In this document: positions 2,435-59,420 of the stretch, piece after piece
How positions within the stretch are numbered: position 1 is the stretch's first letter
Layout: the number at the start of each line of letters is the position of its first letter
Virus record (IMG/VR): IMGVR_UViG_2667527573_000005
Coordinates: 62,001 to 126,000 of that record
Length of the DNA: 64,000 bases
Strand: one strand, 5' to 3'
DNA from: an uncultured virus (IMG/VR IMGVR_UViG_2667527573_000005)
Lineage: Duplodnaviria > Heunggongvirae > Uroviricota > Caudoviricetes
Notes under the pieces: generated by a model
The model's database searches: none
Told to the model about the DNA's origin: nothing
What the model saw: the letters and a program-made list of their open reading frames with translations, nothing else
Program-made: the position numbers and the translations under genes

Positions 2435-2584
2435 AGTCCCATCTCCCAACAACGTTATCTTATGTATCTTCATTATATCCGTTACCAATAGATTATGCAA
2501 TAATTAATTTTATTTTTATTCTAGACAAATAAACACATGTGCTCGATGTGTTTAAAATGTCTATTTTATTTAGTTTCAATATGC

Positions 2585-2740
2585 TCATGAAGCCAGGGTT
2601 TTATACCTTGTTTTAATCATTTCCGCTTCATTCTCAAGATGGTTGTCCTCTTGAGCAATTATTGAATTGATTGCAGCCATTTCCTCGTACCCTTTTGCCA
2701 TTTCTTCATAAGATATTGCTTTACCTAATGCTCTTTTCAT
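2585..2740 (-). CDS. aimX: AimX arbitrium effector (51 aa, MazE C-terminus mimic)
   Basis: Hand-translated MKRALGKAISYEEMAKGYEEMAAINSIIAQEDNHLENEAEMIKTRYKTLAS; MxxGYxEMAxIN resembles MazE/NdoAI; downstream of aimP. Confidence 0.88.
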   Translation of the reverse strand: MKRALGKAISYEEMAKGYEEMAAINSIIAQEDNHLENEAEMIKTRYKTLAS

Positions 2741-2753
2741 TCTAATAACCCCC

Positions 2754-2790
2754 ATGTTCTTATTTTTTGATTTTTGAATTTCTGGAACTT
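2754..2790. promoter_or_regulatory. Probable AimR operator
   Basis: ATGTTC-N25-GAACTT imperfect inverted repeat between aimP terminator and aimX; 6-bp arms with a 25-bp spacer is the known AimR-box architecture. Confidence 0.7.
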
Positions 2791-2804
2791 TCCCTTAAAA
2801 TTAG

Positions 2805-2837
2805 AAAAGACGCCTGATCCAATGGATCAAACGTCTT
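2805..2837 (-). terminator. Intrinsic terminator between aimP and aimX
   Basis: Minus strand AAGACGTTTGATCC-att-GGATCAGGCGTCTT followed by TTCT. Confidence 0.75.
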
Positions 2838-2861
2838 ACAAATATGTATTAAATTTTCTAA

Positions 2862-2993
2862 TTAGGCTCCTCGACTTGGAGACGCAACTTTAATTGGTTG
2901 ATCCACTGAAGCTGTTTCCATTGATTTTTGCCCACCTACAAAGCCAACTGCCAAAGCAATGACAATAATTAAACTATACAATACTTTTTTCAT
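2862..2993 (-). CDS. aimP: Arbitrium pre-pro-peptide AimP (43 aa), mature peptide predicted SPSRGA
   Basis: MKKVLYSLIIVIALAVGFVGGQKSMETASVDQPIKVA-SPSRGA; signal peptide, C-terminal RGA, RBS AAGGAGGTG, directly after aimR. Confidence 0.93.
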   Translation of the reverse strand: MKKVLYSLIIVIALAVGFVGGQKSMETASVDQPIKVASPSRGA

Positions 2994-3023
2994 TTTATTC
3001 ACCTCCTTTCAAGGTGAAAGAAG

Positions 3024-4199
3024 TTAAATAAGGATTAACTCAAGCAGATTCTCATCGCATCCCATTTTTCTGAGCTTTCCTAAGGGAAGGTTAATAAACA
3101 TTTTGTCCCCTGACTTTTTCAATTTTGCTGTACTTTCATAAAAATAAGACTTTTCTTGATAAATCAACCCCTTTATATAATCTAAAATTCCCGCATCATA
3201 AAGATATAAATCCCTTTTTTCAAGGCTGCTTATAACTGAAATTGCTTTATCGTATTGCTTTTTGTTTGTATAATAATATGCTACCTCAATTTGATCAGCT
3301 ACTAGATTAGAGTTGAAATCAACCCATTGATTTTCCTTATTCCACACATTATTTAAAAAACACAATGCTAAACGAAGCTTGTAGTCATGATGTGTATTCG
3401 TCTTAGCAAAAGTACGACCTAATTCATAGCTTTCTTTTGCCTTATCATAGCTTTCAAATATTAATGTATTACCATAAGTCAAATACCCAAAGACCTTTAA
3501 ACGTTCGATATCAGTGTTTGTTATTACCTCTTCAGAATAATACCTAGATTTCTCAAGATCATTATCATTCAGGTAAATATTTGCCTTTAATAAAGCAACT
3601 CTTGACGCATACGAGTCTTTTATAAAGCCATTTGGCAACTCATCCAAATCAAGCAGTTTTGCAGTGCTCTTCATTAATCCAAATTCACCAATGTTTAGAT
3701 ATTCATACATAAGCATTGCATTTGAAAAGAAAAGCATTTCAGGGGTCTTTATCTTACATTTACCAGTTTCTCTAATTGCATCATTTAAACCTAGTTCACT
3801 TTTGTTCAATTTCCTATGTATGCTGTAGATATTGCCCCATTCTTGGCTAGTTGCATTTTTAGAATTACATAAATTTAAAATGATTTTGTCTGTAAGTGAA
3901 TCCCATTGATTTATATCTGAGTATTCAACCGACTGCCTTGCACACTTTTTATTAGGGTCTAGCTGTAAAAAGTATTCGCTCAAAAGCTGTTCTTCTTTTT
4001 CTGAAAATAAGCTCTTAACAATCTTAATTAGACCACCCAAGTTTTCCATTTCTTTTTCTGGGGTGTTCACAAACTTATAAAAACCATTTACTTTTTCATA
4101 ACCAGCCAATTTAGCAAGTCGAGCTGCAAGCTGATTATCTTTTTCACATTCGTTCTTAATCATCTGCTTTAATTTCAACTTGTCCCCCCCTTTATTCAC
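3024..4199 (-). CDS. aimR: AimR arbitrium receptor (HTH + TPR); real start probably a few codons downstream
   Basis: MIKNECEKDNQLAARLAKLAGYEKVNGFYKFVNTPEKEMENLGGL matches recalled phi3T AimR N-terminus; followed by aimP. Confidence 0.93.
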   Translation of the reverse strand: MNKGGDKLKLKQMIKNECEKDNQLAARLAKLAGYEKVNGFYKFVNTPEKEMENLGGLIKIVKSLFSEKEEQLLSEYFLQLDPNKKCARQSVEYSDINQWDSLTDKIILNLCNSKNATSQEWGNIYSIHRKLNKSELGLNDAIRETGKCKIKTPEMLFFSNAMLMYEYLNIGEFGLMKSTAKLLDLDELPNGFIKDSYASRVALLKANIYLNDNDLEKSRYYSEEVITNTDIERLKVFGYLTYGNTLIFESYDKAKESYELGRTFAKTNTHHDYKLRLALCFLNNVWNKENQWVDFNSNLVADQIEVAYYYTNKKQYDKAISVISSLEKRDLYLYDAGILDYIKGLIYQEKSYFYESTAKLKKSGDKMFINLPLGKLRKMGCDENLLELILI

Positions 4200-4219
4200 T
4201 TATCACTTCCCTTGTTTAT

Positions 4220-4270
4220 AATATACCTCATAGTTATCAGAATTTCAAGTATATATTTTATTTTTACTCT
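4220..4270 (-). promoter_or_regulatory. SigA-like aimR promoter with upstream copy of the AGAATAAAAATAAAA repeat
   Basis: TTGAAA-17-TATATT on minus strand (4248..4220); one-mismatch repeat at 4256-4270. Confidence 0.55.
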
Positions 4271-4448
4271 TTATTTGTTGTTAAATCAATGAAATTCTTA
4301 TTTTAATTAGATACAATGAGGAATAGCTCCTCATTGTACAAAGTTAATTCTCCACCTTTAAACGCCATGTTTTAGATTGTGATAAACCTCTTCTGCGATA
4401 TCTTTTGCAAATTTGTCGCAGATTTCCCTATCAAAATTCCTTAAACAC

Positions 4449-4841
4449 TTAGCAAAACGTTAATACTCCCAAAATTATATAAATCAATATTCTTGAAAAT
4501 TTCACTTTAAAGAATAAAGCTCGGTAATTGTCTTTAAAAACATAGATGAAACTTAGAAGCAAGGGAAACGTCTGAAATACAGGCAACACCAAATTTGCTA
4601 TTAAGATGTTCCCTTGAGATATTCTCAGTATAAAATTGCCAACATGCTCAAAATAAATTACATAGGTGATCCATGATAAAGATACAGAAAAAAGCAAAAG
4701 AAGCTTCAAAAAACCTACTTTGTTTAATAATTGCTCTGTTTCAATTAATGTCCTCTTAATCGAGTTTATATTATACTTAATAAATTCTCTAAATGAATTA
4801 GTATCTTTTTGATAAGAAGTTGAAGTTTGATTTACTTTCAA
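4449..4841 (-). CDS. Membrane protein, probably C-terminally truncated
   Basis: RBS GAGGGG, three hydrophobic segments, stops inside the last one. Confidence 0.5.
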   Translation of the reverse strand: MKVNQTSTSYQKDTNSFREFIKYNINSIKRTLIETEQLLNKVGFLKLLLLFSVSLSWITYVIYFEHVGNFILRISQGNILIANLVLPVFQTFPLLLSFIYVFKDNYRALFFKVKFSRILIYIILGVLTFC

Positions 4842-4869
4842 TTTATACGTTCCCCTCAGATCCGCTCTA

Positions 4870-5171
4870 TTAGTGTTCCTCTCTCATCTTTTTGTTTAGT
4901 TTGAACCCAATTAAGATATTGACAATAGCTGCTGGAAGATATAAAACTCCTGCACCTATTATTCCTAATGCAGTACTTGAACTCACTATAAATATCTGCA
5001 TTTCTGTGTTTCTTGACTTCAAGCTAAGTAATACTAGAAGGCCAGCTAAAACCCCCATAAGACGTGCAATACCTGGAATAAAGAAATCTGTTAGGACTCC
5101 AAATAATTGCCCTATAATTGATAGCACAATCCCTAAAAAGCTGGACAATAAAACTAAATTTTTAATGGCAT
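4870..5171 (-). pseudogene. Small membrane-protein gene with apparent 1-nt deletion near the start
   Basis: RBS AAGGGGTG + ATG at 5171 reads MPLKI-stop; one extra A in the A5 run joins it in frame to ORF 4870..5148. Confidence 0.45.
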
Positions 5172-5182
5172 TTCACCCCTTT

Positions 5183-5314
5183 TCAAAGCCGCTTCCATTC
5201 CACATACTCAAACCGTTTATGATATAGGTCTTCAAGTATAGCAGCCCATTCAATCCAACCTTCTGCAACAATGTTTTTCTTTTCTCCATTCTCAATCCAC
5301 TCTATCCAATACAC
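5183..5314 (-). CDS. yopG: YopG-like small protein (43 aa)
   Basis: Hand-translated MYWIEWIENGEKKNIVAEGWIEWAAILEDLYHKRFEYVEWKRL; RBS AGGAG; size and order match yopE-F-G. Confidence 0.7.
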   Translation of the reverse strand: MYWIEWIENGEKKNIVAEGWIEWAAILEDLYHKRFEYVEWKRL

Positions 5315-5324
5315 CTGAACACTC

Positions 5325-5540
5325 CTAACGCTTTACGACTTGAATTTCCCTTACCTCACATTGCACATTACACTTCGTTTTAAGCTCACTTGCTACCTCG
5401 ATGACTTCTAACATATTATGCATTTTAGAAGCTTCATGGAGGTCGCTAGATGTCAAATAACCACTCTCATCTAATTTAAATGCTTTAAAGTATTCCTTGT
5501 TTTCAAACTGCAGTACATAAAAATAATCAATCAAAGGCAT
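5325..5540 (-). CDS. yopF: YopF-like hypothetical protein
   Basis: 71 aa, synteny. Confidence 0.7.
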   Translation of the reverse strand: MPLIDYFYVLQFENKEYFKAFKLDESGYLTSSDLHEASKMHNMLEVIEVASELKTKCNVQCEVREIQVVKR

Positions 5541-5543
5541 AAA

Positions 5544-5795
5544 TCAACCTCTTTTAAATAATTTTGTAATCCTCATTGCCAATGGCAGTAAACCAATTAA
5601 CATAAAAAAAGCAATCACATTAAGCTTATTTTTGAAAAACAGGCTGGCCAAATTCCTTTCCATGCCCGCTGCTGTTTCTTTATCCATGAGTTCTTTAAAC
5701 TCTTCATCATAGACCTGATCAACAAAAATAAACTTAATGCCGGTCAATAATCCAACTCCAAGCCAGATAATTAAAAAATAAGCTAATCCAATCAT
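5544..5795 (-). CDS. yopE: YopE-like membrane protein
   Basis: 83 aa, two TM segments, RBS GGGAGG, synteny. Confidence 0.7.
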   Translation of the reverse strand: MIGLAYFLIIWLGVGLLTGIKFIFVDQVYDEEFKELMDKETAAGMERNLASLFFKNKLNVIAFFMLIGLLPLAMRITKLFKRG

Positions 5796-5853
5796 TTGTT
5801 CCCTCCCTATATCGAACGAAATTTGCTATTCTTGAGTATGTTGAATAAATTAT

Positions 5854-6045
5854 GTGGGTGATCTTGTGGAAGAGAAGTTTGAAACAAACGGGTATGATAC
5901 TTCAATCGTTTATGATTACAAAGAATATCCAGATGTAAAATACGGACGCTGCGACAACTGTGATTACACACTGTTCAAAAGCTCTGTGAAGAGTGGAATA
6001 TTCTTGCGTGAATGCCGGCGTTGCGGTATGAAAAAGAGCATTTAG
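5854..6045 (+). CDS. Small zinc-ribbon protein
   Basis: CDNC...CRRC; followed by bidirectional terminator. Confidence 0.7.
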   Translation: MGDLVEEKFETNGYDTSIVYDYKEYPDVKYGRCDNCDYTLFKSSVKSGIFLRECRRCGMKKSI

Positions 6046-6061
6046 ATTAATGCTCTTTTTT
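6031..6061. terminator. Bidirectional terminator
   Basis: AAAAAGAGCATT-tagatt-AATGCTCTTTTT between convergent genes. Confidence 0.7.
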
Positions 6062-6082
6062 GTAATATTGAACCCTTAATCA

Positions 6083-6718
6083 CTAGTTATGATGGTATTC
6101 TTTAATTCCATCAGAAGATATCACAACAGAATAAGCTGTTTTACCAATCATTTCATCGTCTGCCCGCTTTATTGCTTTAAAATTAAGTCGTGCAAAGTTT
6201 CTCGGATTTTTATAATAGTGATCTCGCTTTAACACTTCTGCAGATATAAACCTTATAGCTTCTTTCTCTGCATCTCCGTTGCTGTTTGAGTTCAATTTTA
6301 CACTTAATTCTTCAATTTCTAGACCACTATAATCATCATCTGATGAAAAACCAAATAATTTTGGTTCGTGTTGTCGCATGAACCCGACATAAAATACAGA
6401 TACTGGTTTGATTCCAGGATAGACCGCTTGGAAATGTGCTTTCCCGTATTTAAATGAGTCTCTAAAAATACCAAGTGGGTCAATGCTATGCAGATTTAAA
6501 ACATCAACATTTTGATTTAGCAATTCAAATGCCTTTTCTGCTATTAGAGTGGATCCAGCAAACGAAACAATGTACTTATTGTCTATTATTTTTATCTTAA
6601 TATAGTCATCTGATTTAATTTTTAACAATTCACCAGAGCAGCTGTCTGTTTCTGTCTGTCTTTTATCAGCAGTCATTATTATGTTATTGCTCCATTTTAC
6701 TGCTACAATCATCGTCAT
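6083..6718 (-). CDS. Ntn-hydrolase / proteasome-beta(HslV)-like protein
   Basis: N-terminal (M)TMIVAV, ADKR at ~17-20, KIKII and SFAGS in the spacing typical of proteasome beta subunits. Confidence 0.6.
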   Translation of the reverse strand: MTMIVAVKWSNNIIMTADKRQTETDSCSGELLKIKSDDYIKIKIIDNKYIVSFAGSTLIAEKAFELLNQNVDVLNLHSIDPLGIFRDSFKYGKAHFQAVYPGIKPVSVFYVGFMRQHEPKLFGFSSDDDYSGLEIEELSVKLNSNSNGDAEKEAIRFISAEVLKRDHYYKNPRNFARLNFKAIKRADDEMIGKTAYSVVISSDGIKEYHHN

Positions 6719-6860
6719 TTATAAATTCAAACCTCCCTAATATTAAAAATAAGAATTACTGATACACCCTTACTCTTGGAATCTGAATAAAAGTACGATT
6801 TTATGTAGACCCAGAAAACTTGTAATTCCTTCCTATGCTTGTAACTTTAGTATACCATTT

Positions 6861-7097
6861 TCATCCTGAGTGATCGATATGGTTATGGCTTTTTTCGAAT
6901 ATCAGCAATTCCTGCAGCTCGATGTTTAGGTATGTACAGACTTTATCTAACAGATCTCTTGGATACCGCTCCATTTCGTCATTATAAAGCTTTCTGACAG
7001 TTGGATACTCATGATCAATATCCCTAGATAGCTTCCGGATACTGATCTTTCTTTCGTCTATTATGGGCTTTAAATTTGATTTAATGATTGTTGTCAC
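6861..7097 (-). CDS. yopB: XRE-family HTH regulator, YopB-like
   Basis: [31 protein letters not shown]...[15 protein letters not shown]. Confidence 0.75.
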
Positions 7098-7180
7098 CTC
7101 TTAGTTATTTCTGATCACTTAAAATGATCATTAACTAAATAATAATGGCCAAGGCTTTTTTCTCCTTGGCCTCGCTGAAT

Positions 7181-7618
7181 TTAATACTCATCAGGCTCTT
7201 CATGTTCAAATCCATAAATACCGTTTATCCAAACATCTCCACAACCTGGATTCTTTGTAATCTCTAACACGTGATTACGATTAGCATCTCCTTCTACTCG
7301 GTCTGTAGCAGTATAGTCTAAATAATTTCCGGTAAATTCTTTCTCACTACGTGGGAATACCCAGCCAGCAAGAGTAATTCTGCTGATTTTCATATTTAGA
7401 GTACAACCTTCAGCATTGCGAATTGTGAATTTGTAAAATAGCCAAGTACGGTCATAATCACGATCAAAATAATCTGCCATAGAAAAACTTTCTGAATCCT
7501 CACTCATGTGAAAGTTAACATTTTTGTACTCTAATGTAAGCTTTGCCTCGGCATTTGGAATACTAAAACTCGACATAAAGCCAAGGCAAATCATAGTTAG
7601 AGCGATTAATTTTTTCAT
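7181..7618 (-). CDS. Secreted hypothetical protein
   Basis: Sec signal peptide MKKLIALTMICLGF...AEA; RBS GGAGAGG; hairpin 7147-7171 downstream. Confidence 0.75.
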   Translation of the reverse strand: MKKLIALTMICLGFMSSFSIPNAEAKLTLEYKNVNFHMSEDSESFSMADYFDRDYDRTWLFYKFTIRNAEGCTLNMKISRITLAGWVFPRSEKEFTGNYLDYTATDRVEGDANRNHVLEITKNPGCGDVWINGIYGFEHEEPDEY

Positions 7619-7708
7619 TCCCTCTCCCCCTTTTATTCCAATTGTAATATAAATTGGTAATTAAAGGATAGTCTTTTTTCTTAATAAGGAAGAAATTTTA
7701 TGACGTTC

Positions 7709-8092: not shown

Positions 8093-8170
8093 GTTTATAA
8101 CCCCTTTCATGTTAAAAGCTTCTTCAACATTGTCTAGACGCCTCCTTAAAATCACTTTAAAATCCATGTT

Positions 8171-9133
8171 TTATTTAGATTTAGTTTTCTCTAAAGGTGA
8201 GTTTTCTTTTATACTGAACACACTAAATTCACCTTTAAAACCACATTCTTTAATTTTATTCTTAAATAATTCTCCAGTTTCTTCGTAATTAAAATCATTT
8301 AAAAACCATGTAATATTCTCTGTATCTAACCTTTTGCAAATTTCTCTAATGTATGGAAGGTCAACATCTGAAAAAGAAAAACCGTATGAGTATACTTTTT
8401 CTATATCACCAGACAGTAATTCATAGAATTCTTCTTGTGCACGTTCTATTATTTCTTTTGTATTTTTTCTTAATGCTGAATGAATTTGGGCCAATGAATA
8501 TTCAGATCCGACAAATGAATTTATTATTTCTTTATCATCTTCCCCGTGTCCAATTATTATTTCATTGTTTTGTTGCCCATGTATTGGGTATACGTCATAG
8601 GCTTCATATACCTCTTCTAACACTGGCGTGTAATTAAAAGTTAAAAAAGTGTCTTCTAAGGAGTTTATCAGAGATTCAAAAGAATCTTTTGGTTCTACAT
8701 CAGAGACATCAATAGTATTAATCCATTCCGAAAACAAGTCTTTTATTTTTAAACTTGCCAAGTAAAAGTTGGCGGCAGCATCTTCATTTCTATAAGCCAT
8801 TCTAAAAAGAGAAGAATCATCATTTTCATCTTCGAATAAAGTTTCCATAACGTATAAGTCGTTATCGAAATTTAGTCTACCTAGGCTAGATTCAAAGTCA
8901 TTCCAGTCTTCTCCACTAACTTCTGAGATGACATTGATAAGAAAAGCAACAAGTTCATCTGTGTTAAACTCCTCTGAACCATCAGGCATCTGGATCGTTT
9001 GAATACCAAATGAAGGATCTAAGCCTTCTGCATCAGGATATGTTTTCAATAAATAATTGTAGAAATCTTTATACCTTGTCGGTAAACCATGTGCTAAGTC
9101 GAAACCATTGCCTATAATAAATAAACTACTCAT
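8171..9133 (-). CDS. AbiH-family abortive infection protein
   Basis: LFIIGNGFDLAHGL, LTFNYT, IHG, IIGHG, GFSFSDVDLPY motifs. Confidence 0.88.
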   Translation of the reverse strand: MSSLFIIGNGFDLAHGLPTRYKDFYNYLLKTYPDAEGLDPSFGIQTIQMPDGSEEFNTDELVAFLINVISEVSGEDWNDFESSLGRLNFDNDLYVMETLFEDENDDSSLFRMAYRNEDAAANFYLASLKIKDLFSEWINTIDVSDVEPKDSFESLINSLEDTFLTFNYTPVLEEVYEAYDVYPIHGQQNNEIIIGHGEDDKEIINSFVGSEYSLAQIHSALRKNTKEIIERAQEEFYELLSGDIEKVYSYGFSFSDVDLPYIREICKRLDTENITWFLNDFNYEETGELFKNKIKECGFKGEFSVFSIKENSPLEKTKSK

Positions 9134-9192
9134 TTTTTCGCTCCAATTAAGTTTTATTAAAAATCTTCCAATGCTAGGGGAATATGTCCTCT

Positions 9193-9417
9193 CTAATCTT
9201 CAAAGTGATAAGAACAATAAACTGAGTTGCTATCTTCATCAATAAAATATGTATTCTGGATTAAGAAATTTGTAAAGCCAGCTGTTTTGAGTATCGCTTT
9301 ACTCATCAGAAGCATATCCATCTGGATATCATAATCAGTTAGAAGATCCAAATTTGTAGTAAACGCTGCATGTAATTCAAAGAAAGAATTATCAAATTTA
9401 AAGTTTAAGATTTTCAT
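9193..9417 (-). CDS. Hypothetical protein
   Basis: 74 aa, RBS GGTGGGGG, upstream TATAAT. Confidence 0.6.
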   Translation of the reverse strand: MKILNFKFDNSFFELHAAFTTNLDLLTDYDIQMDMLLMSKAILKTAGFTNFLIQNTYFIDEDSNSVYCSYHFED

Positions 9418-9483
9418 GACAATCCCCCACCTTACCGTTTCCTTTATTATACAGTGAGATCTTATCTAATTAAAACTGCTGTT

Positions 9484-9765
9484 TTATCCAGTTATTATCT
9501 CAGGATTTTTATCTGCTTTGTTTTCGACTTTTCCTATTCTTACAACCGAGATCAAATCCCCATCCCATTCAATAACACTAGCATAATAGAATAACTGACT
9601 GTCTTTTTCATAAAGCTCTGTTCTGATACGTTCATACCACTTATGACCAAGGTAAGGATAGTCATATTTAAACTGCCCTTTATATGTAAAACCCATCTGT
9701 TCCATTGCTTCGTCAAGTTTACCTACTGGGCTAACTAACCTTATATCTAACATTATTTCTTCCAT
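9484..9765 (-). CDS. Hypothetical phage protein
   Basis: 93 aa, RBS GGAGAG. Confidence 0.7.
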   Translation of the reverse strand: MEEIMLDIRLVSPVGKLDEAMEQMGFTYKGQFKYDYPYLGHKWYERIRTELYEKDSQLFYYASVIEWDGDLISVVRIGKVENKADKNPEIITG

Positions 9766-9800
9766 CGTTATTTCTCTCCATTCTGTTTAAAATTGTTGTT

Positions 9801-10004
9801 TTATTGAGAATACAGAAATTTCTTAGCCACTTCATCAATGTGCTTTTCAAGCCCTCCAATTGTAGCTCGTGTATTAGTTTTCGCACATTCACGAATATAG
9901 ATCGTTACGTTTTCTCCTAATTCTGTAAGCCAATCTATACCGCACTGTCCTTCATAAGCTTCTTTTTCATATGATTCTAGCTTTTCTAGAAATCTTTTTC
10001 CCAT
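9801..10004 (-). CDS. Hypothetical phage protein
   Basis: 67 aa, RBS AAAGGAG. Confidence 0.7.
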   Translation of the reverse strand: MGKRFLEKLESYEKEAYEGQCGIDWLTELGENVTIYIRECAKTNTRATIGGLEKHIDEVAKKFLYSQ

Positions 10005-10028
10005 TTCAGCCTTCTCCTTTCTGTTAAT

Positions 10029-10250
10029 TTAAGAAATCCCCAACTTCTTCAAACATACTTTGCAAGCCCATTCCTTATTTGCCATCAGCTCAGATTCTTC
10101 TATTCCAGTTTCGAAAAAATCTGTATTTTGACCATACTTTCCACAAATAGATTTGTTATCAACAAAGGCATGATATTTCGCTTTTGGATGAACCCATTCA
10201 TAATCTGTTTTATTGCTCTGGATTGGCAACTGCCAGACTATTTTATTCAT
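10029..10250 (-). CDS. Small His/Cys-rich putative zinc-binding protein (73 aa)
   Basis: Likely start MNKIVWQ overlapping upstream stop; KYHAF..SICG..CKVC. Confidence 0.65.
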   Translation of the reverse strand: MNKIVWQLPIQSNKTDYEWVHPKAKYHAFVDNKSICGKYGQNTDFFETGIEESELMANKEWACKVCLKKLGIS

Positions 10251-10374
10251 CCCTGCCCTCTTTATCATTCTCATATGATTCAATTTGCTGATTAACCAGA
10301 TCAATAACACTTGGTTGCTCTTCATTCAACTTCTTAACTGTATTCATCCATTCGTTGTGGCTAACTTCTTTCAT
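10243..10374 (-). CDS. Small hypothetical protein (43 aa)
   Basis: Hand-translated MKEVSHNEWMNTVKKLNEEQPSV...GRDE; RBS GGAGAGG; overlaps next start. Confidence 0.6.
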   Translation of the reverse strand: MKEVSHNEWMNTVKKLNEEQPSVIDLVNQQIESYENDKEGRDE

Positions 10375-10422
10375 TTTTAACCTCTCCATTCTGTTTTGAA
10401 TTGTTATTTTATTCATATTTCT

Positions 10423-10677
10423 TTAAGGTAATAAAGCTACACTTTCACCTGTTTGTATAAAGTATGCACGTTGTAAGAATGTTACAGTATGGTCGTGTTT
10501 ACCTTCCATATATTCTTTAGCTTCTTTATTTCTCCATGCAAAATAAGATTCACGATCATTCACATAAACTTTTCCACTTTTAACTTCTTCGATACAAACC
10601 ATAGCATTATCAGCAAACCATTTTCTTGTTTTTTGAATTGATTCATCTGTTAGTTGTACCCCATTAAATCTTGTCAT
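10423..10677 (-). CDS. Hypothetical phage protein
   Basis: 84 aa ORF, RBS-like GGTGATGG. Confidence 0.7.
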   Translation of the reverse strand: MTRFNGVQLTDESIQKTRKWFADNAMVCIEEVKSGKVYVNDRESYFAWRNKEAKEYMEGKHDHTVTFLQRAYFIQTGESVALLP

Positions 10678-10722
10678 ACTACCATCACCATTCTGTTTAA
10701 AATATGCATTTTATTTAGATTC

Positions 10723-12519: not shown

Positions 12520-12520
12520 T

Positions 12521-26505: not shown

Positions 26506-26819
26506 TAAGAAGGAGTAAAATCAAATGAAGACAAAACGAATTAACTGGTCATTGGGTTAATTTCTCAGATGAATTTAAAACGGAGCTTTCCTTAATTATT
26601 GTCAGGTAATTTGTACAACTTAGCCTAATCGAAGTGTTAGGACATTATTTTTTCAACTAAGGGAGCCTCGATGTAGGCTCCTATAAACTTTGCTTAAAAC
26701 TTTAATTTTATCCAGATAAGCACCTTTTTAGAACGCCCAGCGAAGATTGTGGTACTCCCCTTCCACTCTATTGCTGGGCGTTCTAAAAAATGTGTTTACA
26801 TCAACTTTATGGAGGTGAA

Positions 26820-31143: not shown

Positions 31144-32292
31144 TTGAGAAGTGCAATCTTAGAGATTAATAATCAGCGAAAAGTAAGTGGACGAACCTTT
31201 GTAAAGTGGGTAGTTCTTGAAATACATGAAAACAATGCCCAATACAATAAAAACGGTATTACCTGGATCGAAAAATATGTTAATGCAAACTTAAATTCCA
31301 TTAAGGATATGCCGCTGTGTGTAGAATTTATTGATTGTGAAAACAGTGAGCCATTTGGTCATGGAATGACGGAAATTAAAGACGGGACTCCCCTGTTTGA
31401 AAACAGCACTGTAGTGGGCGTTACAACAAATGGATATATCGACACTATTGAAGTAAATGGTCAACAAAAGAGAGTACTAATTGGTGAGGGTTTTATTTAC
31501 AACCAAAGGTATCCTAAGTTTGTACAATGGCTTAAATCGAAAATGTTTGATGGAGATTTCCCAGAAACCTCAGTAGAAATTTCCGCAGTTGAAGGAAGCT
31601 CTTCAATTGAGTATGACGGTGGGTACAAAGAAAAAGGTCGTATACCTATGAGGTTTGATTTTACCGGCGACGCAATTCTAGGAATTGACCCAGCTGATGA
31701 TGCTGCTGTCTTACTGGAACTAAATAATAATCACAAGGAGGAACAGTCAATGGCAAAAACACATGATGAAACATTAGTTGAATTGAATAATAAGCTAAAC
31801 ATTGAGAATAAAGCACTGGAAACAAAAGTGGCTGAACTTAATGAGGCGATCAAGAAAAAAGATGAGGAATTAAATGCGGCTGTAAAAGCAGCTAAAGATG
31901 AGAAAGCAAAAGTTGAGGAGAAAGAAAAAGAAATCAAAAAAGCAAAAGAAGATAAAGAAAAAGCTGATGCCGAGTTGAATTCACTGAAAGAATTCAAACA
32001 ACGCGCAGAAAACGAAAAGCTAAAAAGCGAACTAAATCAAGATCTCACTAAATATACAGAGAAAGAAAAATCGGTAGCGAAAGAAAAAATCGAACTCTTC
32101 TCCAAATCTCCTTCTCTTGAGCTAAAGACACAAATTCTCTCGGAAATTAACTCCTCAATTGCTCAATCATTTATTGCTCAACGTCAAAAGAATCAATCGA
32201 CTGAAACAAATAGCACTATTGATAAAAACATTTATTCAGAAATTAATGATGCTGGACAAGAAAGCTCAGTATCTATTGATGATCTCTATTAA
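31144..32292 (+). CDS. Prohead protease/scaffold protein (yonD position)
   Basis: YNKNG, H, TSVEI, FTGDAILG protease-like N-half; K/E-rich coiled-coil C-half. Confidence 0.75.
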   Translation: MRSAILEINNQRKVSGRTFVKWVVLEIHENNAQYNKNGITWIEKYVNANLNSIKDMPLCVEFIDCENSEPFGHGMTEIKDGTPLFENSTVVGVTTNGYIDTIEVNGQQKRVLIGEGFIYNQRYPKFVQWLKSKMFDGDFPETSVEISAVEGSSSIEYDGGYKEKGRIPMRFDFTGDAILGIDPADDAAVLLELNNNHKEEQSMAKTHDETLVELNNKLNIENKALETKVAELNEAIKKKDEELNAAVKAAKDEKAKVEEKEKEIKKAKEDKEKADAELNSLKEFKQRAENEKLKSELNQDLTKYTEKEKSVAKEKIELFSKSPSLELKTQILSEINSSIAQSFIAQRQKNQSTETNSTIDKNIYSEINDAGQESSVSIDDLY

Positions 32293-32328
32293 GATAAAAT
32301 AACACTTTTATAGAAATGAGGAATTTAT

Positions 32329-38430: not shown

Positions 38431-38484
38431 GTCCTCCCCTCTTATTTTTCTAGATAAAAGACAGTTTTTATTCAAATTAAGGAG

Positions 38485-41978: not shown

Positions 41979-42397
41979 TGGCGAGAAACATTAAGGAAAT
42001 CAAGACGATGATTGAAAAAAATGCAATTCAATCAATACATAAATCTTCCTCTAATGTGAAACAAATCATGATGGAAACAGGCCAAGAACATGTTGATGAA
42101 GATGTTTATGGTGCATATAATCCCCTTCTTTATGAACGCACAGGACAAATTAAAGATGCTTTTATAACCACCAATGAAAGCAACGGGGTGTCATTGGACA
42201 ATATTAGAGAGGATGACGGGAAAGACGTTGCTACAGTCATTGAAACCGGTCAGGGTTATACATACCCTGATTCATATGGGTATGGCTATGGTAAACCTCG
42301 TCCTTTTATGAAGAATACCGCTGAGACCCTAAAAGATGGACGATTAACTGCAGCGCTAAAAAAAGATTTAATGGCAGATGGAATTAAAACAGACTAA
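41975..42397 (+). CDS. yomN: YomN-like tail completion protein
   Basis: YERTGQ...IETG...KPRPFM (HK97 gp10-like pattern). Confidence 0.7.
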   Translation: MMARNIKEIKTMIEKNAIQSIHKSSSNVKQIMMETGQEHVDEDVYGAYNPLLYERTGQIKDAFITTNESNGVSLDNIREDDGKDVATVIETGQGYTYPDSYGYGYGKPRPFMKNTAETLKDGRLTAALKKDLMADGIKTD

Positions 42398-42410
42398 TGG
42401 CGGTGAATTA

Positions 42411-43412
42411 ATGGCCAAATCAATTGAAAAGAATATGCTCAGGTCTCGAGCAATAAAACTCCCCGAGATCACGGAGTCAATGTGGGAGCAAGTAGATGAA
42501 GAGCACAGAAGCTTGGTTCAAGAGTTTTTAGATGCTCACTCATTTAGAGATAAAACACGAAAACAGTATTACTCCTCCCTCCGCCAATTCTTTTGGTGGG
42601 TACATACCTCTCTTAACGGCAAAAAACTTTATAAGATCTCAAAGCGTGATTTCATTAGGTATCAAAGTTTCTTAAAAAATCGCGGAATGTCTTCCAGTGG
42701 GATTGCATTAAAAAAAGCTGGTGTATCATCATTAAACAACTATATTGAAAATGTTGTTGCAGAAGATGATGAGAATTATGAGAAATTCAGAAACTTCACC
42801 CGTGGACTCCCAGCTATTCCAAAAACCACAACATATGAAAAAGTAAAGGTTACATATGATGATTATAAACTGATGATGGACGCCCTAAAAGAGGACGAAA
42901 ATTATTTGGGGATGGCATGGCTTGCTACTGCCTTTAATGTTGGCGGGCGAAGAGCAGAACTCATACAGCTAAAAACAGAAATATTAGATTATCCTATCCC
43001 CGAAGGTCAGTCATATGTGATGAGTCATAAGGTATTCGGAAAAGGTAAAGGTGAAGGAAAGCCTCTTGAGTACATGATTAACACAGAAGCATTGGAGTAC
43101 CTTCGATTGTGGCATGAAAAACGCGGTTATGACCATGAATACCTCTTCACTACTCAGTATGGCGGAGAGCCTAAACAGATGTCAGAGTCTTGGGCTGATT
43201 ATTTTTGCTCGGACGTTTTATCAGACATTCTTGGCCGGCGTATTAACCCTCACCTCTTCAAAGCTTCATGCATCACTTATCTCCTAGAAGTTAAGAAAAT
43301 CAAAATTGAATTGATAAGTAAATATGTAGCTCATCATGAAGATGTCTCAACAACAATTAAACATTATGATTTACGGGATTTTGAAGAAGAAAAGAATCAA
43401 ATATTTGTTTAG
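42411..43412 (+). CDS. yomM: YomM tyrosine recombinase/integrase-family protein
   Basis: SAM-like N-domain; GGRRAEL, GKGK, NPHLFK, AHH, KHYD. Confidence 0.85.
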   Translation: MAKSIEKNMLRSRAIKLPEITESMWEQVDEEHRSLVQEFLDAHSFRDKTRKQYYSSLRQFFWWVHTSLNGKKLYKISKRDFIRYQSFLKNRGMSSSGIALKKAGVSSLNNYIENVVAEDDENYEKFRNFTRGLPAIPKTTTYEKVKVTYDDYKLMMDALKEDENYLGMAWLATAFNVGGRRAELIQLKTEILDYPIPEGQSYVMSHKVFGKGKGEGKPLEYMINTEALEYLRLWHEKRGYDHEYLFTTQYGGEPKQMSESWADYFCSDVLSDILGRRINPHLFKASCITYLLEVKKIKIELISKYVAHHEDVSTTIKHYDLRDFEEEKNQIFV

Positions 43413-43622
43413 TTAAAATCCCTCTTTTATGCAGAATCAAAATCCTTCAGTTGAGGGATTTTGCTTATGTTTAAAAATCATGGGAAGAACTTTCATCTGC
43501 TTCATTCGCTAGCGCTCATCATTTTTCATCAGTTAAGACTTGAATTTTGTATTATTTTGGTATAAAATTTTTGTATACACAAAACCTATTCACAATTAAT
43601 ATGGTGTTAGAGGTGGTTTATT

Positions 43623-52388: not shown

Positions 52389-52405
52389 ATATTGGGGGTG
52401 AAAAA

Positions 52406-53167: not shown

Positions 53168-53179
53168 GAAGGTGAAAAA

Positions 53180-55822: not shown

Positions 55823-55827
55823 CGGAG

Positions 55828-56658
55828 GTGATTAAACTGGCGGATTTTGCTGAATTATACAATGACCCGATACTAAGTAAAAAGAGAATAGGTTCAGTTG
55901 AAGACCCGTACCTAACTTACAATGAAACATTAACAATATTTAATGGAAGAGCACTCCTAACTGAGATTCCGAACAGAGAATTTCGTGTTGAAGTTACTGG
56001 GGACAATAAGGAATGGCGAGAGATTGAAGATGGAGAACTTGACGACAACTATTTTAAGGTTGATTACCTTATGGGAGTGGTCTTTTTTAATGCCTCAAAC
56101 GAAGGAAAATCGCTTACCTTCAATTACAGTGGCGAAGGAGCTTCCTTCTTTCCCGCCTCTCGAATTTGGATAAAGCGTCAAGGGAATATGGTAATTGAAA
56201 CTCTACAAGGGCTTATTGATGAAGCTGAAGATGCAATAATTCGAATGAATGAACGGATTGCTGAATGTGAACGTGTTACAAAGCGATGTATTGAAATAAC
56301 TAAATGGTGCAGAGAAGCTACATCCGATTATGAATATGTTGTTGAAAACACAAGGAAAATTTATAAGCCTTCAGTTTATACATACGCCGATATTATTACA
56401 ACATATCCAAACCCGCTCATTGGCTGGACTGTTGCAGTTAAAGAAACAAAAACAGTCTATAGGTGGGATGGATTTGACTGGGTAGACATTGGTACTTCAG
56501 AAGTATATGAAGGTTTCAATATTTTATTAAGTGCTGTCGAACCGTTTAGTACAAATTATATATGGTATCAAGATGAAGGCTTGGTACCTGAAAAACAAAG
56601 AGTAATCATATCAAATGTTGCACCTGAATCAGGTATGGTTTGGTATGAAATTGATTAG
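55828..56658 (+). CDS. yomF: YomF-like tail/baseplate protein
   Basis: 276 aa, synteny. Confidence 0.7.
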   Translation: MIKLADFAELYNDPILSKKRIGSVEDPYLTYNETLTIFNGRALLTEIPNREFRVEVTGDNKEWREIEDGELDDNYFKVDYLMGVVFFNASNEGKSLTFNYSGEGASFFPASRIWIKRQGNMVIETLQGLIDEAEDAIIRMNERIAECERVTKRCIEITKWCREATSDYEYVVENTRKIYKPSVYTYADIITTYPNPLIGWTVAVKETKTVYRWDGFDWVDIGTSEVYEGFNILLSAVEPFSTNYIWYQDEGLVPEKQRVIISNVAPESGMVWYEID

Positions 56659-56700
56659 AAGGAGAATCTACTAGTCTCTTTTTTAACTTGGAGGAATTAG

Positions 56701-59256
56701 ATGGGATTTAAATATTACGATAAAAATACCGGTTCCTATGTTCCCATGTCGATTGAATTACTTAAATCAGATGGCGTTTCTTACACTGCACCCTCGATTA
56801 AGCAGACTTTCGAGGATATCTTAAAACAAGTAAGCAGTGTTTCAAGTAGCGTCACTGAGAAAGTTGATGGGCTATCAAATCAAATTGGGAACATAGATGA
56901 TTTTCATATTACGGGTACAAACCTTGTTGAGAAGATATTAAATGCATTAATTCAGCGTAGAGTTAGCGTTACGGATTTTGGAGCTAAAGGCGATGGTGTG
57001 ACTGATGACACTGCAGCCTTTAACAAAGCTTTTGAAATGGGAAATGCAGAAGTATTTGTGCCAGCCGGAACATACATGGTTAAAGGCTTGAAAGTCCCAT
57101 CCTACACTAGATTATATGGAACAGGTAAACTCTCAGTTATTAAACTTCATAAAGATGCCCCCGCATACAGCCACGTCATCACAACTGTTCAAAATTCAAA
57201 GTACATTATTTTTGAAAACCTCTTGCTTGACTGGAACCTTCAGAAGACTAACAACAGCATTTCCTCTGGCCCCAACTCAAGTTGCTTAAACATTACCAAT
57301 TCACAATTTGTATGGGTAAATAATGTTCATGCCAAAGATGCAGGATTACACGGGTTTGATGTAACCTCTCCTTCTTATAACTCCCTTACAGATACAGAAG
57401 ATGTTTATCAACCAGGTGGAAGTAAATACGTTTGGATTAATAATTGTACAGCAACGAACTTTGGCGACGATGGTTTCACAACCCACTTCTCAGAGTATGT
57501 TTTTATAACAAATTGTTATTCATATGATGGAAACGGATCAGCTCATACATCAGGTGCCAGCAACACAAATGGATTTGAAATTGATGATGGTTCAATGAAA
57601 GTTTGGCTGATCAACTGTGTCAGTAAGAATAACTGCCGAGGATTTGAAGCTAAGGCTCATGAACATGCACCAGCAGCACAGAATGTCACCTTTTTAAATT
57701 GTGTATCTGAAAATGATATTCGAAGTTTTGATTTTAGACACATTGGATTCCATAAAGCTAGTGACCCAGAATCTAAAACTGCAAGAAATATTATGGCTTC
57801 TAACTGCACAGCAATAAAACCAATTTTCAACGATAGGTTATACGCTGGAATGACACCAAGAGCTTTGGTTATTTCTGCTTACAAAAATGTTAACATTTCT
57901 AATTTCACAGCTATCGGTGACCCTTCTTATGACTATAAAGGTAATCCAGCTATTGCAACTCAATATAAAAGCAGGAACATTACTTTTAATAATGTTTCTT
58001 CATCTGGATTTAAAACAGCTGGAGCAGATATTTATATTTATGGAGGAAGTCAAAAATCTGACTTTGTGTCCTTATCAAATATAAATGTTCTTGAATCTGC
58101 ATTAATTGGCATCAGAATTGGCAGTGCTATTAAGAACGCTAGTGTAAATCAAGCAAGTTTAATTGGTTACAGCAAAGAAGGGTCTATTGGCTTGTATTGT
58201 ACAAATTCTCAAGTTGACATTAACGCAGTCAATTGTGATAAATACGCTATCCCCTCGAAGATTGCCGGAAAAGCCTATACATCCTTTGTACCAAAAAATA
58301 TTAAAGGTGGCACAAGGATTGCGACAACTTCTGGCTACGCTGCTAAAAATACTAGTCTTGTAGCTGCTTCTTCTGGTGGTGGACAAGCAACGGGTACTGC
58401 TTCTGCTGTTATAGCAACAACTGGTGGATCTAAAGCCGATGGCCCTCGTAACGTAGTAATCGCTTCATCTGGCGGTTCTAAAACCACATCTGAAGGCAGT
58501 CGTTCAATGGTTGCCGCTTCAAATAACTCTTCTATTGAAGGCACTGGATCATCTAGGATGGTCATAGCTTCCCAAGGTGTTGCCAATAAAACAGGTTACA
58601 CAGTTGCTTTAGGATATGCTGCTACAGGTGCACCCTCTACAGCAAATACAAAGATTCAATTAGATGCAAAGAATGGGAATATTAATCTTACCGGTCAAGT
58701 TAAAGGTGCCTCAACTTTCTCAGATTACGCCGAGTATTTCGAATCGATTGATGGTAAAGCCATTCCTTCTGGTTATTTTGTAACTCTAGAAGGTGACAAA
58801 ATCAGAAAAGCCAACGCAGGAGATAAAGTTTTAGGAGTGATTTCTGAAACAGCTGGTGTAGTTTTAGGTGAAGCAGCTTTTAACTGGCAAGGTCGTTATT
58901 TAAAGAACGAATTTGGCGGATTGATTTACGAAGATATTGATGTAACAGTTACCAATGAAGACGGTACACAAAGAATCGAAACTAAAACAGTTCCGAAAGA
59001 AAATCCTTATTATGAACCTTCTGAAGATTATATTGCTCGGTCTGATCGGCCTGAATGGAATATCGTAGGAATGTTTGGCCAGATATTTGTACGTATTGAT
59101 GGGACTGTTGCAGCTGGTGATCGTATAATTCCCAAAGCCGGTAAAGGGTCAAAATCTGAGGATGGTTCAGGTTACTACGTAATGCGTATCACAACCCCGT
59201 ATTCACAAGAACGAGGATATGGTGTAGCGCTATGTCTTATCACCCCTACAATCTAA
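56701..59256 (+). CDS. yomE: YomE-like beta-helix tail spike with C-terminal peptidase G2 chaperone (phi29 gp12-like)
   Basis: VTDFGAKGDGVTDDTAAF, beta-helix repeats, DYAEYFE, RPEWNIVGMFGQ. Confidence 0.88.
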   Translation: MGFKYYDKNTGSYVPMSIELLKSDGVSYTAPSIKQTFEDILKQVSSVSSSVTEKVDGLSNQIGNIDDFHITGTNLVEKILNALIQRRVSVTDFGAKGDGVTDDTAAFNKAFEMGNAEVFVPAGTYMVKGLKVPSYTRLYGTGKLSVIKLHKDAPAYSHVITTVQNSKYIIFENLLLDWNLQKTNNSISSGPNSSCLNITNSQFVWVNNVHAKDAGLHGFDVTSPSYNSLTDTEDVYQPGGSKYVWINNCTATNFGDDGFTTHFSEYVFITNCYSYDGNGSAHTSGASNTNGFEIDDGSMKVWLINCVSKNNCRGFEAKAHEHAPAAQNVTFLNCVSENDIRSFDFRHIGFHKASDPESKTARNIMASNCTAIKPIFNDRLYAGMTPRALVISAYKNVNISNFTAIGDPSYDYKGNPAIATQYKSRNITFNNVSSSGFKTAGADIYIYGGSQKSDFVSLSNINVLESALIGIRIGSAIKNASVNQASLIGYSKEGSIGLYCTNSQVDINAVNCDKYAIPSKIAGKAYTSFVPKNIKGGTRIATTSGYAAKNTSLVAASSGGGQATGTASAVIATTGGSKADGPRNVVIASSGGSKTTSEGSRSMVAASNNSSIEGTGSSRMVIASQGVANKTGYTVALGYAATGAPSTANTKIQLDAKNGNINLTGQVKGASTFSDYAEYFESIDGKAIPSGYFVTLEGDKIRKANAGDKVLGVISETAGVVLGEAAFNWQGRYLKNEFGGLIYEDIDVTVTNEDGTQRIETKTVPKENPYYEPSEDYIARSDRPEWNIVGMFGQIFVRIDGTVAAGDRIIPKAGKGSKSEDGSGYYVMRITTPYSQERGYGVALCLITPTI

Positions 59257-59420
59257 ATGCATTAAAAATTAAGGAGGTGTTTACGTTCTAAATAAAATAT
59301 AGATTTTATTCAAAATACATACTTAAAAAACAGAGATAACAAGAGCATATGTAAGATAAAGAGAGATTGGGATTTGTCCCCTTCTCTCTTTTTTGTGCTC
59401 AAATTTAATTTTTAGGAGAG

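What the first reader, a model, noticed from the sequence alone, without database searches (positions are those of the whole stretch)
2553..59314. Directional TAAAA-N6-TTTTA-NN-CAGA repeat at gene junctions across the genome
Seen: exact TAAAA-N6-TTTTA at 2553, 6788, 9471, 9788, 10698, 26695, 32295, 38455, 43414 and 59293, plus a degenerate copy at 10396. All are intergenic or overlap a stop codon. Read in the local transcription direction, they continue with NN-CAGA or a close variant (CACA, TAGA, CAAA, GAAA). The 6-nt spacers all differ. A rough estimate gives about one chance copy of the 10 fixed bases in 64 kb. Inverted arms around a 6-bp spacer is the layout of tyrosine-recombinase core sites, and one copy sits right after yomM. 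Several copies lie where gene content appears to differ from SPbeta (before the terminase genes, before the TA moron, before the endolysin). Alternatives: promoter or activator site for YonO, an antitermination site, or an RNA-processing signal.
Basis: partly seen in the sequence, partly recalled or inferred. Interest (0 to 1): 0.78.

Follow-up and report, generated by a model that had tools for sequence, protein, structure and literature searches.

The report
Barcoded gene-swap joints in phage genomes
This Bacillus phage and its relatives carry about thirty short palindromic sites between genes, each with its own six-letter barcode, and related phages appear to swap genes exactly at sites with matching barcodes, which would be a built-in mechanism for the patchwork evolution of phage genomes.

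Summary
The motif is real (12 exact cores, 1.0 expected) but not directional. It is the core of a 28-bp palindrome, 11+6+11, the geometry of tyrosine-recombinase sites. Fifteen SPbeta-type genomes carry 31-40 copies each. The 6-bp spacer is an address: never repeated within a genome, kept in order between genomes, and kept where both flanks are unrelated. Where one flank is shared and the other is not, the spacer is identical in 295 of 373 pairs, the near arm in 285, the far arm in 53, so the join is at the spacer. Half of sites (272/535) carry a sharp mosaic boundary against 4-8% of start codons, stop codons and three other repeats. The only DNA shared with the unrelated phage FADO is two site-to-site cassettes. 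Best reading: addressed crossover sites for module exchange between phages, cut by a phage tyrosine recombinase. YopP/SroD fits better than YomM, because complete relatives lacking YomM keep the addresses. No enzyme activity is shown, three quarters of sharp boundaries lie elsewhere, and lab hybrids are uninformative. This scan noted the same sites on other DNA before; my literature searches found no description.

The parts
2547..2574 (.). 28-bp site, address TAGACA (read on - strand), in the aimX/sro region
   Evidence: 4 genomes, one flank type each side
6782..6809 (.). 28-bp site, address TCGTAC
   Evidence: 12 genomes, 4 left and 5 right flank types, 10 combinations; hard breakpoints at it
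8152..8179 (.).
   Evidence: 7 genomes, 4 left and 3 right types
8171..9133 (-). AbiH-family abortive-infection gene inside the CAGCAG-CATGGA module
   Evidence: Pfam PF14253, E 1.8e-55
9465..9492 (.). 28-bp site, address CAGCAG
   Evidence: 12 genomes including FADO, 6 left and 6 right types
9782..9809 (.). 28-bp site, address CAACAA; stop of ORF 9801-10004 is the TAA of the arm
   Evidence: 13 genomes including FADO, 8 left and 10 right types
9782..10719 (-). three-gene cassette shared with the otherwise unrelated phage FADO at 94.5-99.6% identity, ending at the two sites
10390..10417 (.). degenerate site, address TAACAA, also in FADO
   Evidence: score 6.5; homology boundary with Goe11
10692..10719 (.). 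28-bp site, address TGCATA, after the helicase gene
   Evidence: 14 genomes, 9 left and 9 right types, 14 combinations
26689..26716 (.). 28-bp site, address TTAAAG, before the terminase region
   Evidence: 13 genomes, 3 left and 4 right types; both flanks differ from SPbeta
32289..32316 (.). 28-bp site, address GTGTTA, in the head genes
   Evidence: 5 genomes, flanks invariant; also in G016
38449..38476 (.). 28-bp site, address ACTGTC, in the tail genes
   Evidence: 15 of 15 genomes, flanks invariant
43408..43435 (.). 28-bp site, address GAGGGA, overlapping the yomM stop codon
   Evidence: 14 genomes, 10 flank combinations; the alternative recombinase of G016/G020 rejoins at a degenerate copy
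59287..59314 (.). 28-bp site, address TCTATA, before the endolysin
   Evidence: 15 of 15 genomes, 2 left and 2 right types
5143..5170 (.). exact core with poor outer arms; probably chance
   Evidence: score 8.8, found only inside one shared block
699..1769 (-). yopP/sroD, tyrosine recombinase with R, K, HSLR, H, Y intact; favoured enzyme
   Evidence: Pfam PF00589; clade alignment; co-occurrence
42378..43412 (+). yomM, tyrosine recombinase in the tail operon with R, K, HxxK, H, Y; second candidate
   Evidence: absent from G016, G020, G021

Best explanation
The 28-bp palindromes are crossover sites of a phage-encoded tyrosine recombinase. Two identical subunits bind the two 11-bp arms; strands are exchanged across the 6-bp spacer, which must match between partners. 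Each site in a genome has its own non-palindromic spacer, so a genome does not delete or invert itself, but it can recombine in register with a co-infecting phage or resident prophage that has the same address. One crossover joins two genomes; a second crossover at another shared address (or packaging from the joined molecule) leaves a hybrid in which the module between the addresses is replaced, with no flanking homology needed. Sites sit between a stop codon and the next ribosome-binding site, so swapped genes stay expressed. Rare reactions between neighbouring near-matching addresses drop a module. SHOWN here: geometry, unique ordered addresses, joins at the spacer, enrichment of mosaic boundaries, site-to-site cassettes between unrelated phages, intact catalytic residues. 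INFERRED: that a recombinase makes the joins, the two-step route, and the enzyme. My split for the enzyme, given a recombinase: YopP/SroD clade about 0.55, tail-operon YomM-slot enzyme 0.2, both together 0.15, host enzyme 0.1.
For: 11+6+11 palindrome. 31-40 sites in each of 15 SPbeta-type genomes, no spacer repeated directly or inverted in 16 of 16 genomes, 7 order flips in 31,424 address pairs, all from one spacer. No duplicate (1.8 expected) and no palindromic spacer (4.1 expected) in 10 distant genomes. 1045 of 2670 same-spacer pairs have both flanks unrelated. Selection-free test: far flank unrelated n=373, spacer identical 295, near-arm outer six 285, far-arm outer six 53; far flank shared n=329: 280, 268, 245. 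Sharp boundaries within 20 bp: 627 of 2661 (1.1% by chance), 230 of 645 non-redundant; ends peak at +8..+10 and -8..-10 from the centre. Anchors with a boundary: sites 272/535; stop 7.7% of 2491, start 8.4% of 2548; SPBRE word 9/119, an AT-rich 14-mer 4/104, strong RBS 17/486. 16 of 55 addresses show all four left/right combinations. G000 and FADO share only two site-bounded cassettes. phi3Ts and SPbeta share a 100% identical 3213-bp block from address TGTAAG to GTAAAA. Median perfect match on offer at doubly unrelated sites is 19 bp. Core is the top spaced palindrome de novo in 9 and second in 1 of 11 genomes with these recombinases, absent in EZ-2018a. YopP clade in 10 of 10 site-rich and 0 of 5 weakly enriched genomes of a reverse screen.
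Against: No binding, cleavage or recombination assay. 2034 of 2661 sharp boundaries are not at sites; 49 of 120 near-identical blocks have no end at a site. In four laboratory phi3T x SPbeta hybrids 8 of 9 main switches fall in long identical blocks and cannot be placed; the one narrowed to 39 bp has no site. The ends of the phi3Ts 's' fragment are not at sites. Several addresses in structural genes never show a flank change. Many YopP and YomM members have Lys in place of the HxxR arginine, which from recall lowers activity in other family members. Lactococcus phage 949 has both recombinases but only 7 cores. Every complete genome examined has some recombinase in the tail-operon slot, so that slot is not excluded; G028 and G029 lack portal and tape-measure genes and say nothing on YomM. 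SroD is recalled as an auxiliary repressor. The 15 genomes are related, so pair counts are not independent; uniqueness alone is weak (about 0.6 duplicates expected per genome).
Confidence: 0.72

Rival explanations
1. The palindromes are binding sites of a phage regulator (SroD as a repressor or elongation roadblock, like mycobacteriophage stoperators), and modules are swapped there by ordinary short-homology recombination (phage Sak4-like YorG or RecA) using the 15-26 bp the sites share: 'boundary sequences'.
For: Sites lie between stop codon and RBS; the recombinase-fold paralogue MrpR is a proven repressor (PMC10516654 passages); SPbeta encodes a Sak4-like annealing protein; a join inside the shared core gives the same sequence outcome; the boundary-sequence idea is in print (PMC3029335 passage).
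Against: Three other repeated words of similar length are not hotspots (4-8% against 51%). An operator does not need a unique, ordered, non-palindromic 6-bp centre. YopP-clade catalytic positions are kept across 19 aligned members.
Confidence: 0.17
2. The sites are redundant dimer- or concatemer-resolution sites (dif/lox-like) acting between sister copies of one genome; exchange between different phages is a by-product.
For: Same geometry as dif (PMC6449649 passage); sister copies always match at every address; invariant addresses in head and tail genes; dimer resolution is proposed for Tyrovirus recombinases (PMC9703825 section 12).
Against: One site suffices for resolution; the sites crowd in the variable early region (204 of 632 intervals under 1 kb) and bound single small genes. 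It does not exclude the best reading, it only changes what selection acts on.
Confidence: 0.08
3. Promoter or activator site for YonO RNA polymerase, antitermination site, or RNA-processing signal.
For: Junction placement only.
Against: Symmetric arms; spacers kept across unrelated flanks; the core is shared by G016, whose YonO match is only 28% identical; it is a different word from SPBRE.
Confidence: 0.03

Closest known systems
pdif modules of Acinetobacter plasmids (XerC/XerD)
   Same: Many 28-bp 11+6+11 sites with a variable centre, conserved inner and variable outer arms, flanking small accessory modules found nearly identical in other replicons (PMC6449649 abstract and passages).
   Different: Here the arms are symmetric, the candidate enzyme is phage-encoded, each address is unique and holds a fixed place on a colinear map that includes core genes, and modules are replaced rather than strung together on a plasmid.
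Heterospecific lox/FRT sites and recombinase-mediated cassette exchange (engineered; recalled)
   Same: Spacer identity decides the partner; two different spacers around a segment allow replacement without excision.
   Different: A natural system with at least 76 addresses in 15 genomes.
Boundary or linker sequences of the modular theory of phage evolution
   Same: Short conserved sequences at gene boundaries where modules are exchanged (PMC3029335 passage).
   Different: That model invokes general recombination and was set aside because such sequences are not found at most mosaic boundaries; here they are strict palindromes with addresses, at a quarter to a third of sharp boundaries.
Integron attC cassettes
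   Same: Promoterless small genes, including defence and counter-defence genes, each bounded by a site with stop codon and RBS close to it.
   Different: No duplicated spacer around a module, no array growing at one end, order conserved, no long imperfect hairpin.
SPBRE, the MrpR/SroF (YopR) operator of SPbeta
   Same: Repeated intergenic element bound by a recombinase-fold phage protein (PMC10516654 passages).
   Different: Different word (AATATGTATA in 9 of the 10 named promoters), 15 bp, at promoters, not a breakpoint hotspot.
Putative attP after gp50 of Tyroviruses
   Same: An 11+6+11 inverted repeat directly after the YomM-like gene (PMC9703825 section 12).
   Different: Described as a single site; the hairpin after the gene in Izhevsk and FADO is not the TAAAA core, while those genomes hold 22 and 33 TAAAA cores elsewhere that the section read does not mention.

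Membership tests
Tyrosine-recombinase core site | Two inverted 11-13 bp arms around a 6-8 bp spacer | tested here: met
   11+6+11; spacing 6 is the only enriched one among 3-9
Tyrosine-recombinase core site | Crossover in the spacer; arms travel with their flanks | tested here: met
   identity profiles (comparative, not biochemical)
Tyrosine-recombinase core site | Partners need the same spacer | tested here: met
   295 of 373 pairs, or 295 against 306 with a site in register; 14 differ by one base; a few fuse neighbouring addresses
Tyrosine-recombinase core site | Asymmetric spacer giving polarity | tested here: met
   no palindromic spacer in 16 genomes or in 10 distant genomes, 4.1 expected
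Tyrosine-recombinase core site | Cognate enzyme with R-K-H-R-H/W-Y | tested here: inconclusive
   window YopP has the full set; other YopP and most YomM have HxxK; which enzyme is cognate is not shown
Tyrosine-recombinase core site | Binding, cleavage and strand exchange | not testable with these tools
   needs bench assay
pdif module (XerC/XerD) | Distinct XerC and XerD arms resembling host dif | tested here: not met
   both arms share one consensus; comparison with host dif rests on recall only
pdif module (XerC/XerD) | Near-identical accessory modules bounded by two sites in unrelated replicons | tested here: met
   two cassettes shared by G000 and FADO
pdif module (XerC/XerD) | Dependence on host XerC/XerD | not testable with these tools
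   strict core is concentrated near the prophage in two host genomes, 5 of 7 and 4 of 5, which does not test dependence
Integron cassette array | Insertion at one attI with variable cassette order | tested here: not met
   order conserved, 7 flips in 31,424 pairs; no duplicated spacer
SPBRE (MrpR operator) | [quoted passage not shown] | tested here: not met
   a different word is shared by those promoters; three have no site within 1.7 kb

The most novel reading that the evidence does not exclude
Large temperate Bacillota phages (SPbeta-like, Tyrovirus-like, staphylococcal and Geobacillus relatives) run a natural, genome-wide cassette-exchange system: one phage tyrosine recombinase (YopP/SroD, which also sits in the lysogeny operon) acts on some 20-55 barcoded sites per genome, giving programmed in-register gene shuffling with co-infecting phages and resident prophages, even between phage genera, and moving defence and counter-defence genes as addressed modules. 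This would be the dedicated linker machinery that the modular theory of phage evolution proposed and that was thought not to exist.
Probability: 0.55. Interest if true: 0.95.

Novelty: categorically new. Interest (0 to 1): 0.88.

Why it matters
Phage mosaicism is usually put down to illegitimate or short-homology recombination filtered by selection, because dedicated boundary sequences were not found (PMC3029335 passage). Here a model phage family shows strict addressed sites at a quarter to a third of sharp boundaries, and the claim can be tested at once with SPbeta, phi3T and two named genes. It would explain how counter-defence and defence genes move: phi3T nip lies in the GATAGT-TATTTA interval and an AbiH gene in the CAGCAG-CATGGA interval. 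It would give YopP/SroD or YomM a function, bear on the 'phage mating' method, and offer a recombinase with dozens of naturally orthogonal spacers. The nearest known kind, pdif modules, shares the chemistry but not the one-address-per-locus map; if the joins turn out to be made by general recombination the rating falls to a new variant of boundary sequences.

Tried and rejected
Directional motif: rejected. SPBRE identity: rejected. YomM as the obvious enzyme: my first reading, weakened by the reverse screen. G028 and G029 as YomM-free evidence: dropped, they lack portal and tape-measure matches. Laboratory hybrids Hyb1-3 and PP526179: 8 of 9 main switches unresolvable, 1 not at a site; four short runs of 21-30 bp were treated as noise. 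phi3Ts 's' fragment: ends not at sites. Journal version of the Dragos paper not held; bioRxiv supplements (Dragos Suppl. Table 1, Garb File S1 with 32 hybrids) are closed, and they bear directly on the claim; the two Loyo spreadsheets were listed, not read. Metagenome contigs laid on window 2000-13500 (4 of 24 listed runs): 9 of 15 joints shown have both ends at or within 20 bp of sites and loose ends fall at 6787, 9783 and 10720, but sides are 22-43 letters at 90% likeness and 10 joints were not shown, so I count it as a weak hint only. YomM model is low confidence (pLDDT 66.6) and only confirms a XerA/Cre-like fold. Two cassette proteins had no PDB match. Host genome G012: 151 cores against 104 control, list cut before the prophage, inconclusive. 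A both-ends count had a logic slip and was redone. Literature searches with no description of these sites: SPbeta+SPBRE, SPbeta+YomM+recombinase (8, none), phi3T+SPbeta+hybrid+recombination, yomM+Bacillus+phage (54, none), six-term mosaicism search (55, none), SroD/E/F (58, none relevant), Tsamsa, pdif, yopP+SPbeta, boundary sequences; most subscription papers, including Lazarevic 1999 and Brady 2023, are outside the library.
Full report
OBSERVATION. The window is part of a 127,190-bp SPbeta-like phage genome (G000). TAAAA-N6-TTTTA occurs 12 times against 1.02 expected: the ten listed copies plus 5149 and 8158. The whole genome has 33. The NN-CAGA tail is on both sides: the element is a 28-bp palindrome, TCTAAATAAAA-N6-TTTTATTTAGA, with an invariant inner five bases and a looser outer six. 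A matrix trained on G000 finds 32 sites in G000 and 34 in SPbeta at score 12, with at most 2 in shuffles. Oriented by transcription the arms share one consensus, so the element is not directional. 496 of 535 sites lie at gene junctions; the upstream stop codon is inside the site in 128 of 308 co-directional cases and the next start is a median 22 bp away. It is not SPBRE: the promoters named in the MrpR paper (PMC10516654, passages) share another word.

THE SPACER IS AN ADDRESS. I assembled 14 named SPbeta-type genomes (of the 32 records; L7, Goe13, whole phi3T, PJN02, 2S-4 and the Clostridium records were not taken), plus FADO and EZ-2018a. The 15 SPbeta-type genomes including G000 have 31-40 sites each, FADO 21, EZ-2018a none. 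They use 76 different spacers. No spacer occurs twice, directly or inverted, in 16 of 16 genomes, none is palindromic, and the order of shared spacers flips in 7 of 31,424 pairs, all through one spacer. In 10 more distant genomes there is no duplicate (1.8 expected) and no palindrome (4.1 expected). Among 2670 pairs with the same spacer both flanks are unrelated in 1045, one flank in 868, neither in 537, unclear in 220.

THE JOIN IS AT THE SPACER. To avoid selecting on the spacer I anchored on an exact 25-mer outside one arm and read on in the other genome. Where the far flank is unrelated (373 non-redundant pairs) the partner has a site in register in 306, the spacer is identical in 295, the outer six bases of the near arm in 285 and of the far arm in only 53. 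Where the far flank is shared (329) the figures are 292, 280, 268 and 245. The 78 misses include 14 one-base variants, off-register cases, partners with no site, and a few where the left arm of one address is joined to the spacer of the next, which deletes the module between. Genome-wide, 627 of 2661 sharp boundaries lie within 20 bp of a site centre (1.1% by chance; 230 of 645 non-redundant), peaking at the far edge of the invariant core. 272 of 535 sites carry such a boundary, against 7.7% of stop codons and 8.4% of start codons away from sites, 9 of 119 SPBRE words, 4 of 104 copies of an AT-rich 14-mer and 17 of 486 strong RBS words. 16 of 55 addresses show all four left/right flank combinations. 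Of 120 blocks at 99% or more, 19 end at sites on both sides, 52 on one, 49 on neither. Clear cases: a 3213-bp block 100% identical between phi3Ts and SPbeta runs from address TGTAAG to GTAAAA; the only DNA similarity found between G000 and FADO is two cassettes, TGCATA to CAACAA (window 9782-10719) and TTCTAA to TGTTGA (357 bp, 99.7%), each ending at the sites. The perfect match on offer where both flanks differ is a median 19 bp.

AGAINST. Three quarters of sharp boundaries lie elsewhere, so this is one route among several. Four laboratory hybrids do not test it: 8 of 9 main switches fall in long identical blocks and the one resolved to 39 bp has no site. The phi3Ts 's' fragment described in bioRxiv 2020.05.06.055103 (passages) does not end at sites. 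That paper reports one non-homologous junction after yosA; SPbeta and phi3Ts share address TATTCC there with no flanking homology, a prediction I could not check because the supplement is closed. The genomes are related, so pair counts overstate independence.

RANGE. The same core with a 6-bp gap is the top spaced palindrome found de novo in G000, SPbeta, G001, G004, G007, G008, Izhevsk, a staphylococcal and a Mammaliicoccus phage, second in FADO, weak in Lactococcus phage 949 and absent in EZ-2018a. In two host genomes 5 of 7 and 4 of 5 strict cores cluster near the prophage (the match of contig numbers to the loci is my assumption); a third was inconclusive.

WHICH ENZYME. YomM (42378-43412) has a XerA/Cre-like fold (low-confidence model), keeps R, K, HxxK/R, H and Y in 23 aligned members, and its stop codon overlaps a site. 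I first favoured it. A reverse screen changed that. From 61 viral loci with a strict site I took the 16 long contigs not found by the YomM scan; 15 were held. Ten are strongly enriched (12-55 cores against 0-3 control), five weakly. All 10 carry a YopP-clade recombinase and none of the 5 does; YomM is found in 5 of the 10 and 1 of the 5. G028 and G029 are truncated and do not count. G016 and G020 are complete SPbeta-like proviruses whose yomM slot holds an unrelated recombinase (31 bits to YomM), rejoined at a degenerate copy of the yomM address; G016 has 25 cores, 16 of them SPbeta addresses in the same order. YopP-clade members keep R, K, HSx[R/K], H and Y in 19 aligned proteins, and the window's YopP has the canonical HSLR. 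Limits: every complete genome has some recombinase in the tail slot; phage 949 has both clades and few cores; the Arg-to-Lys change is recalled to reduce activity elsewhere; YopP is known only as an integrase-domain gene of the yopM-R operon (PMC8612738, passages) and, from recall of Brady 2023, as an auxiliary repressor.

MECHANISM. Most likely a phage tyrosine recombinase pairs two sites with the same spacer on two different phage genomes in one cell; two such crossovers replace the module between the addresses. Unique, polar spacers protect each genome from self-deletion and inversion and keep exchange in register. Stop codon before and RBS after the site keep incoming genes expressed. Cargo includes an AbiH gene here and, in phi3T, nip and phi3T_121 between GATAGT and TATTTA, where similarity to SPbeta resumes exactly at TATTTA; these are the two genes common to all 10 hybrids in PMC11984713 (passages), though flanking homology there allows ordinary recombination too. 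The main rival is operator sites used by short-homology recombination; the control repeats argue against it but do not exclude it.

KNOWN SYSTEMS AND NOVELTY. It works like heterospecific-site cassette exchange (recalled) and looks like pdif modules (PMC6449649, abstract and passages), but fails pdif, integron and SPBRE membership. The Tyrovirus paper (PMC9703825, passages and section 12) notes one different 11+6+11 repeat after the YomM homologue. Ten literature searches found no description of the dispersed sites; key subscription papers were out of reach. Earlier notes of this scan on other genomes reached the same reading of the sites and named YomM and YopP as candidates; I had the address reading before and the YopP result. 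Papers seen only as passages: 10.1101/2021.12.14.472415, 10.1101/2021.11.22.469490 (passages and section 21), 10.1101/2025.11.23.689978, PMC3029335.

VERDICT. A real, precise and widespread feature. That the sites are addressed crossover points is well supported (about 0.9); that a site-specific recombinase makes the joins is likely (about 0.72); the enzyme is open, YopP/SroD favoured.

Noticed in passing
window 42378-43435; L355, L356: The yomM gene is itself exchangeable: G016 and G020 carry an unrelated 352-aa tyrosine recombinase in the same tail-operon slot, joined at a degenerate copy of the same address. Why every such phage keeps a recombinase just before the tape-measure gene is unexplained.
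   Followed up: partly
window 43440-43475: A second inverted repeat follows the yomM site; Izhevsk and FADO have a different hairpin right after their yomM homologue, published as a putative attP. It could be the real YomM target or a terminator.
   Followed up: partly
window 8171-9133: AbiH-family abortive-infection gene carried by the phage on an addressed module.
   Followed up: partly
window 43623-44162: Small ORF plus RelE/ParE-like gene (below Pfam cut-off) directly after the yomM address: a toxin-antitoxin moron.
   Followed up: no
window 22438-23403: Homing-endonuclease-like gene after yonN; its boundary at about 23400 is a sharp breakpoint with no site.
   Followed up: no
window 17250-17290, 24460, 24930, 37540, 49450: Recurrent sharp homology boundaries with many relatives that are not at sites.
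   Followed up: no
G000 and relatives, next to several sites: An AT-rich 14-mer of the AATAAAAATAAAAT type recurs, often just after a site; 104 copies away from sites are not breakpoint hotspots. Role unknown.
   Followed up: partly
FADO (L144-L152): A second strong spaced palindrome, CGTTG-N1-CAACG, 13 copies against 0.05 expected.
   Followed up: no
Lactococcus phage 949 (L223-L228): Has both recombinase clades but few TAAAA cores; TATA-N7-TATA and ATTAT-N3-ATAAT are enriched instead.
   Followed up: partly
G012 contig 1, 229,267-249,476: Seven cores within 20 kb of a host chromosome far from the YomM-bearing prophage; possibly another element using the same sites.
   Followed up: no
G016 82,720-85,961; G028, G029: The YonO RNA polymerase region differs strongly (28% match in G016/G020; split in G028/G029) although the address map is kept.
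   Followed up: no
window 6083-6718: 211-aa ORF with a weak proteasome-subunit Pfam hit (E 0.0026, below cut-off) inside a variable module.
   Followed up: no
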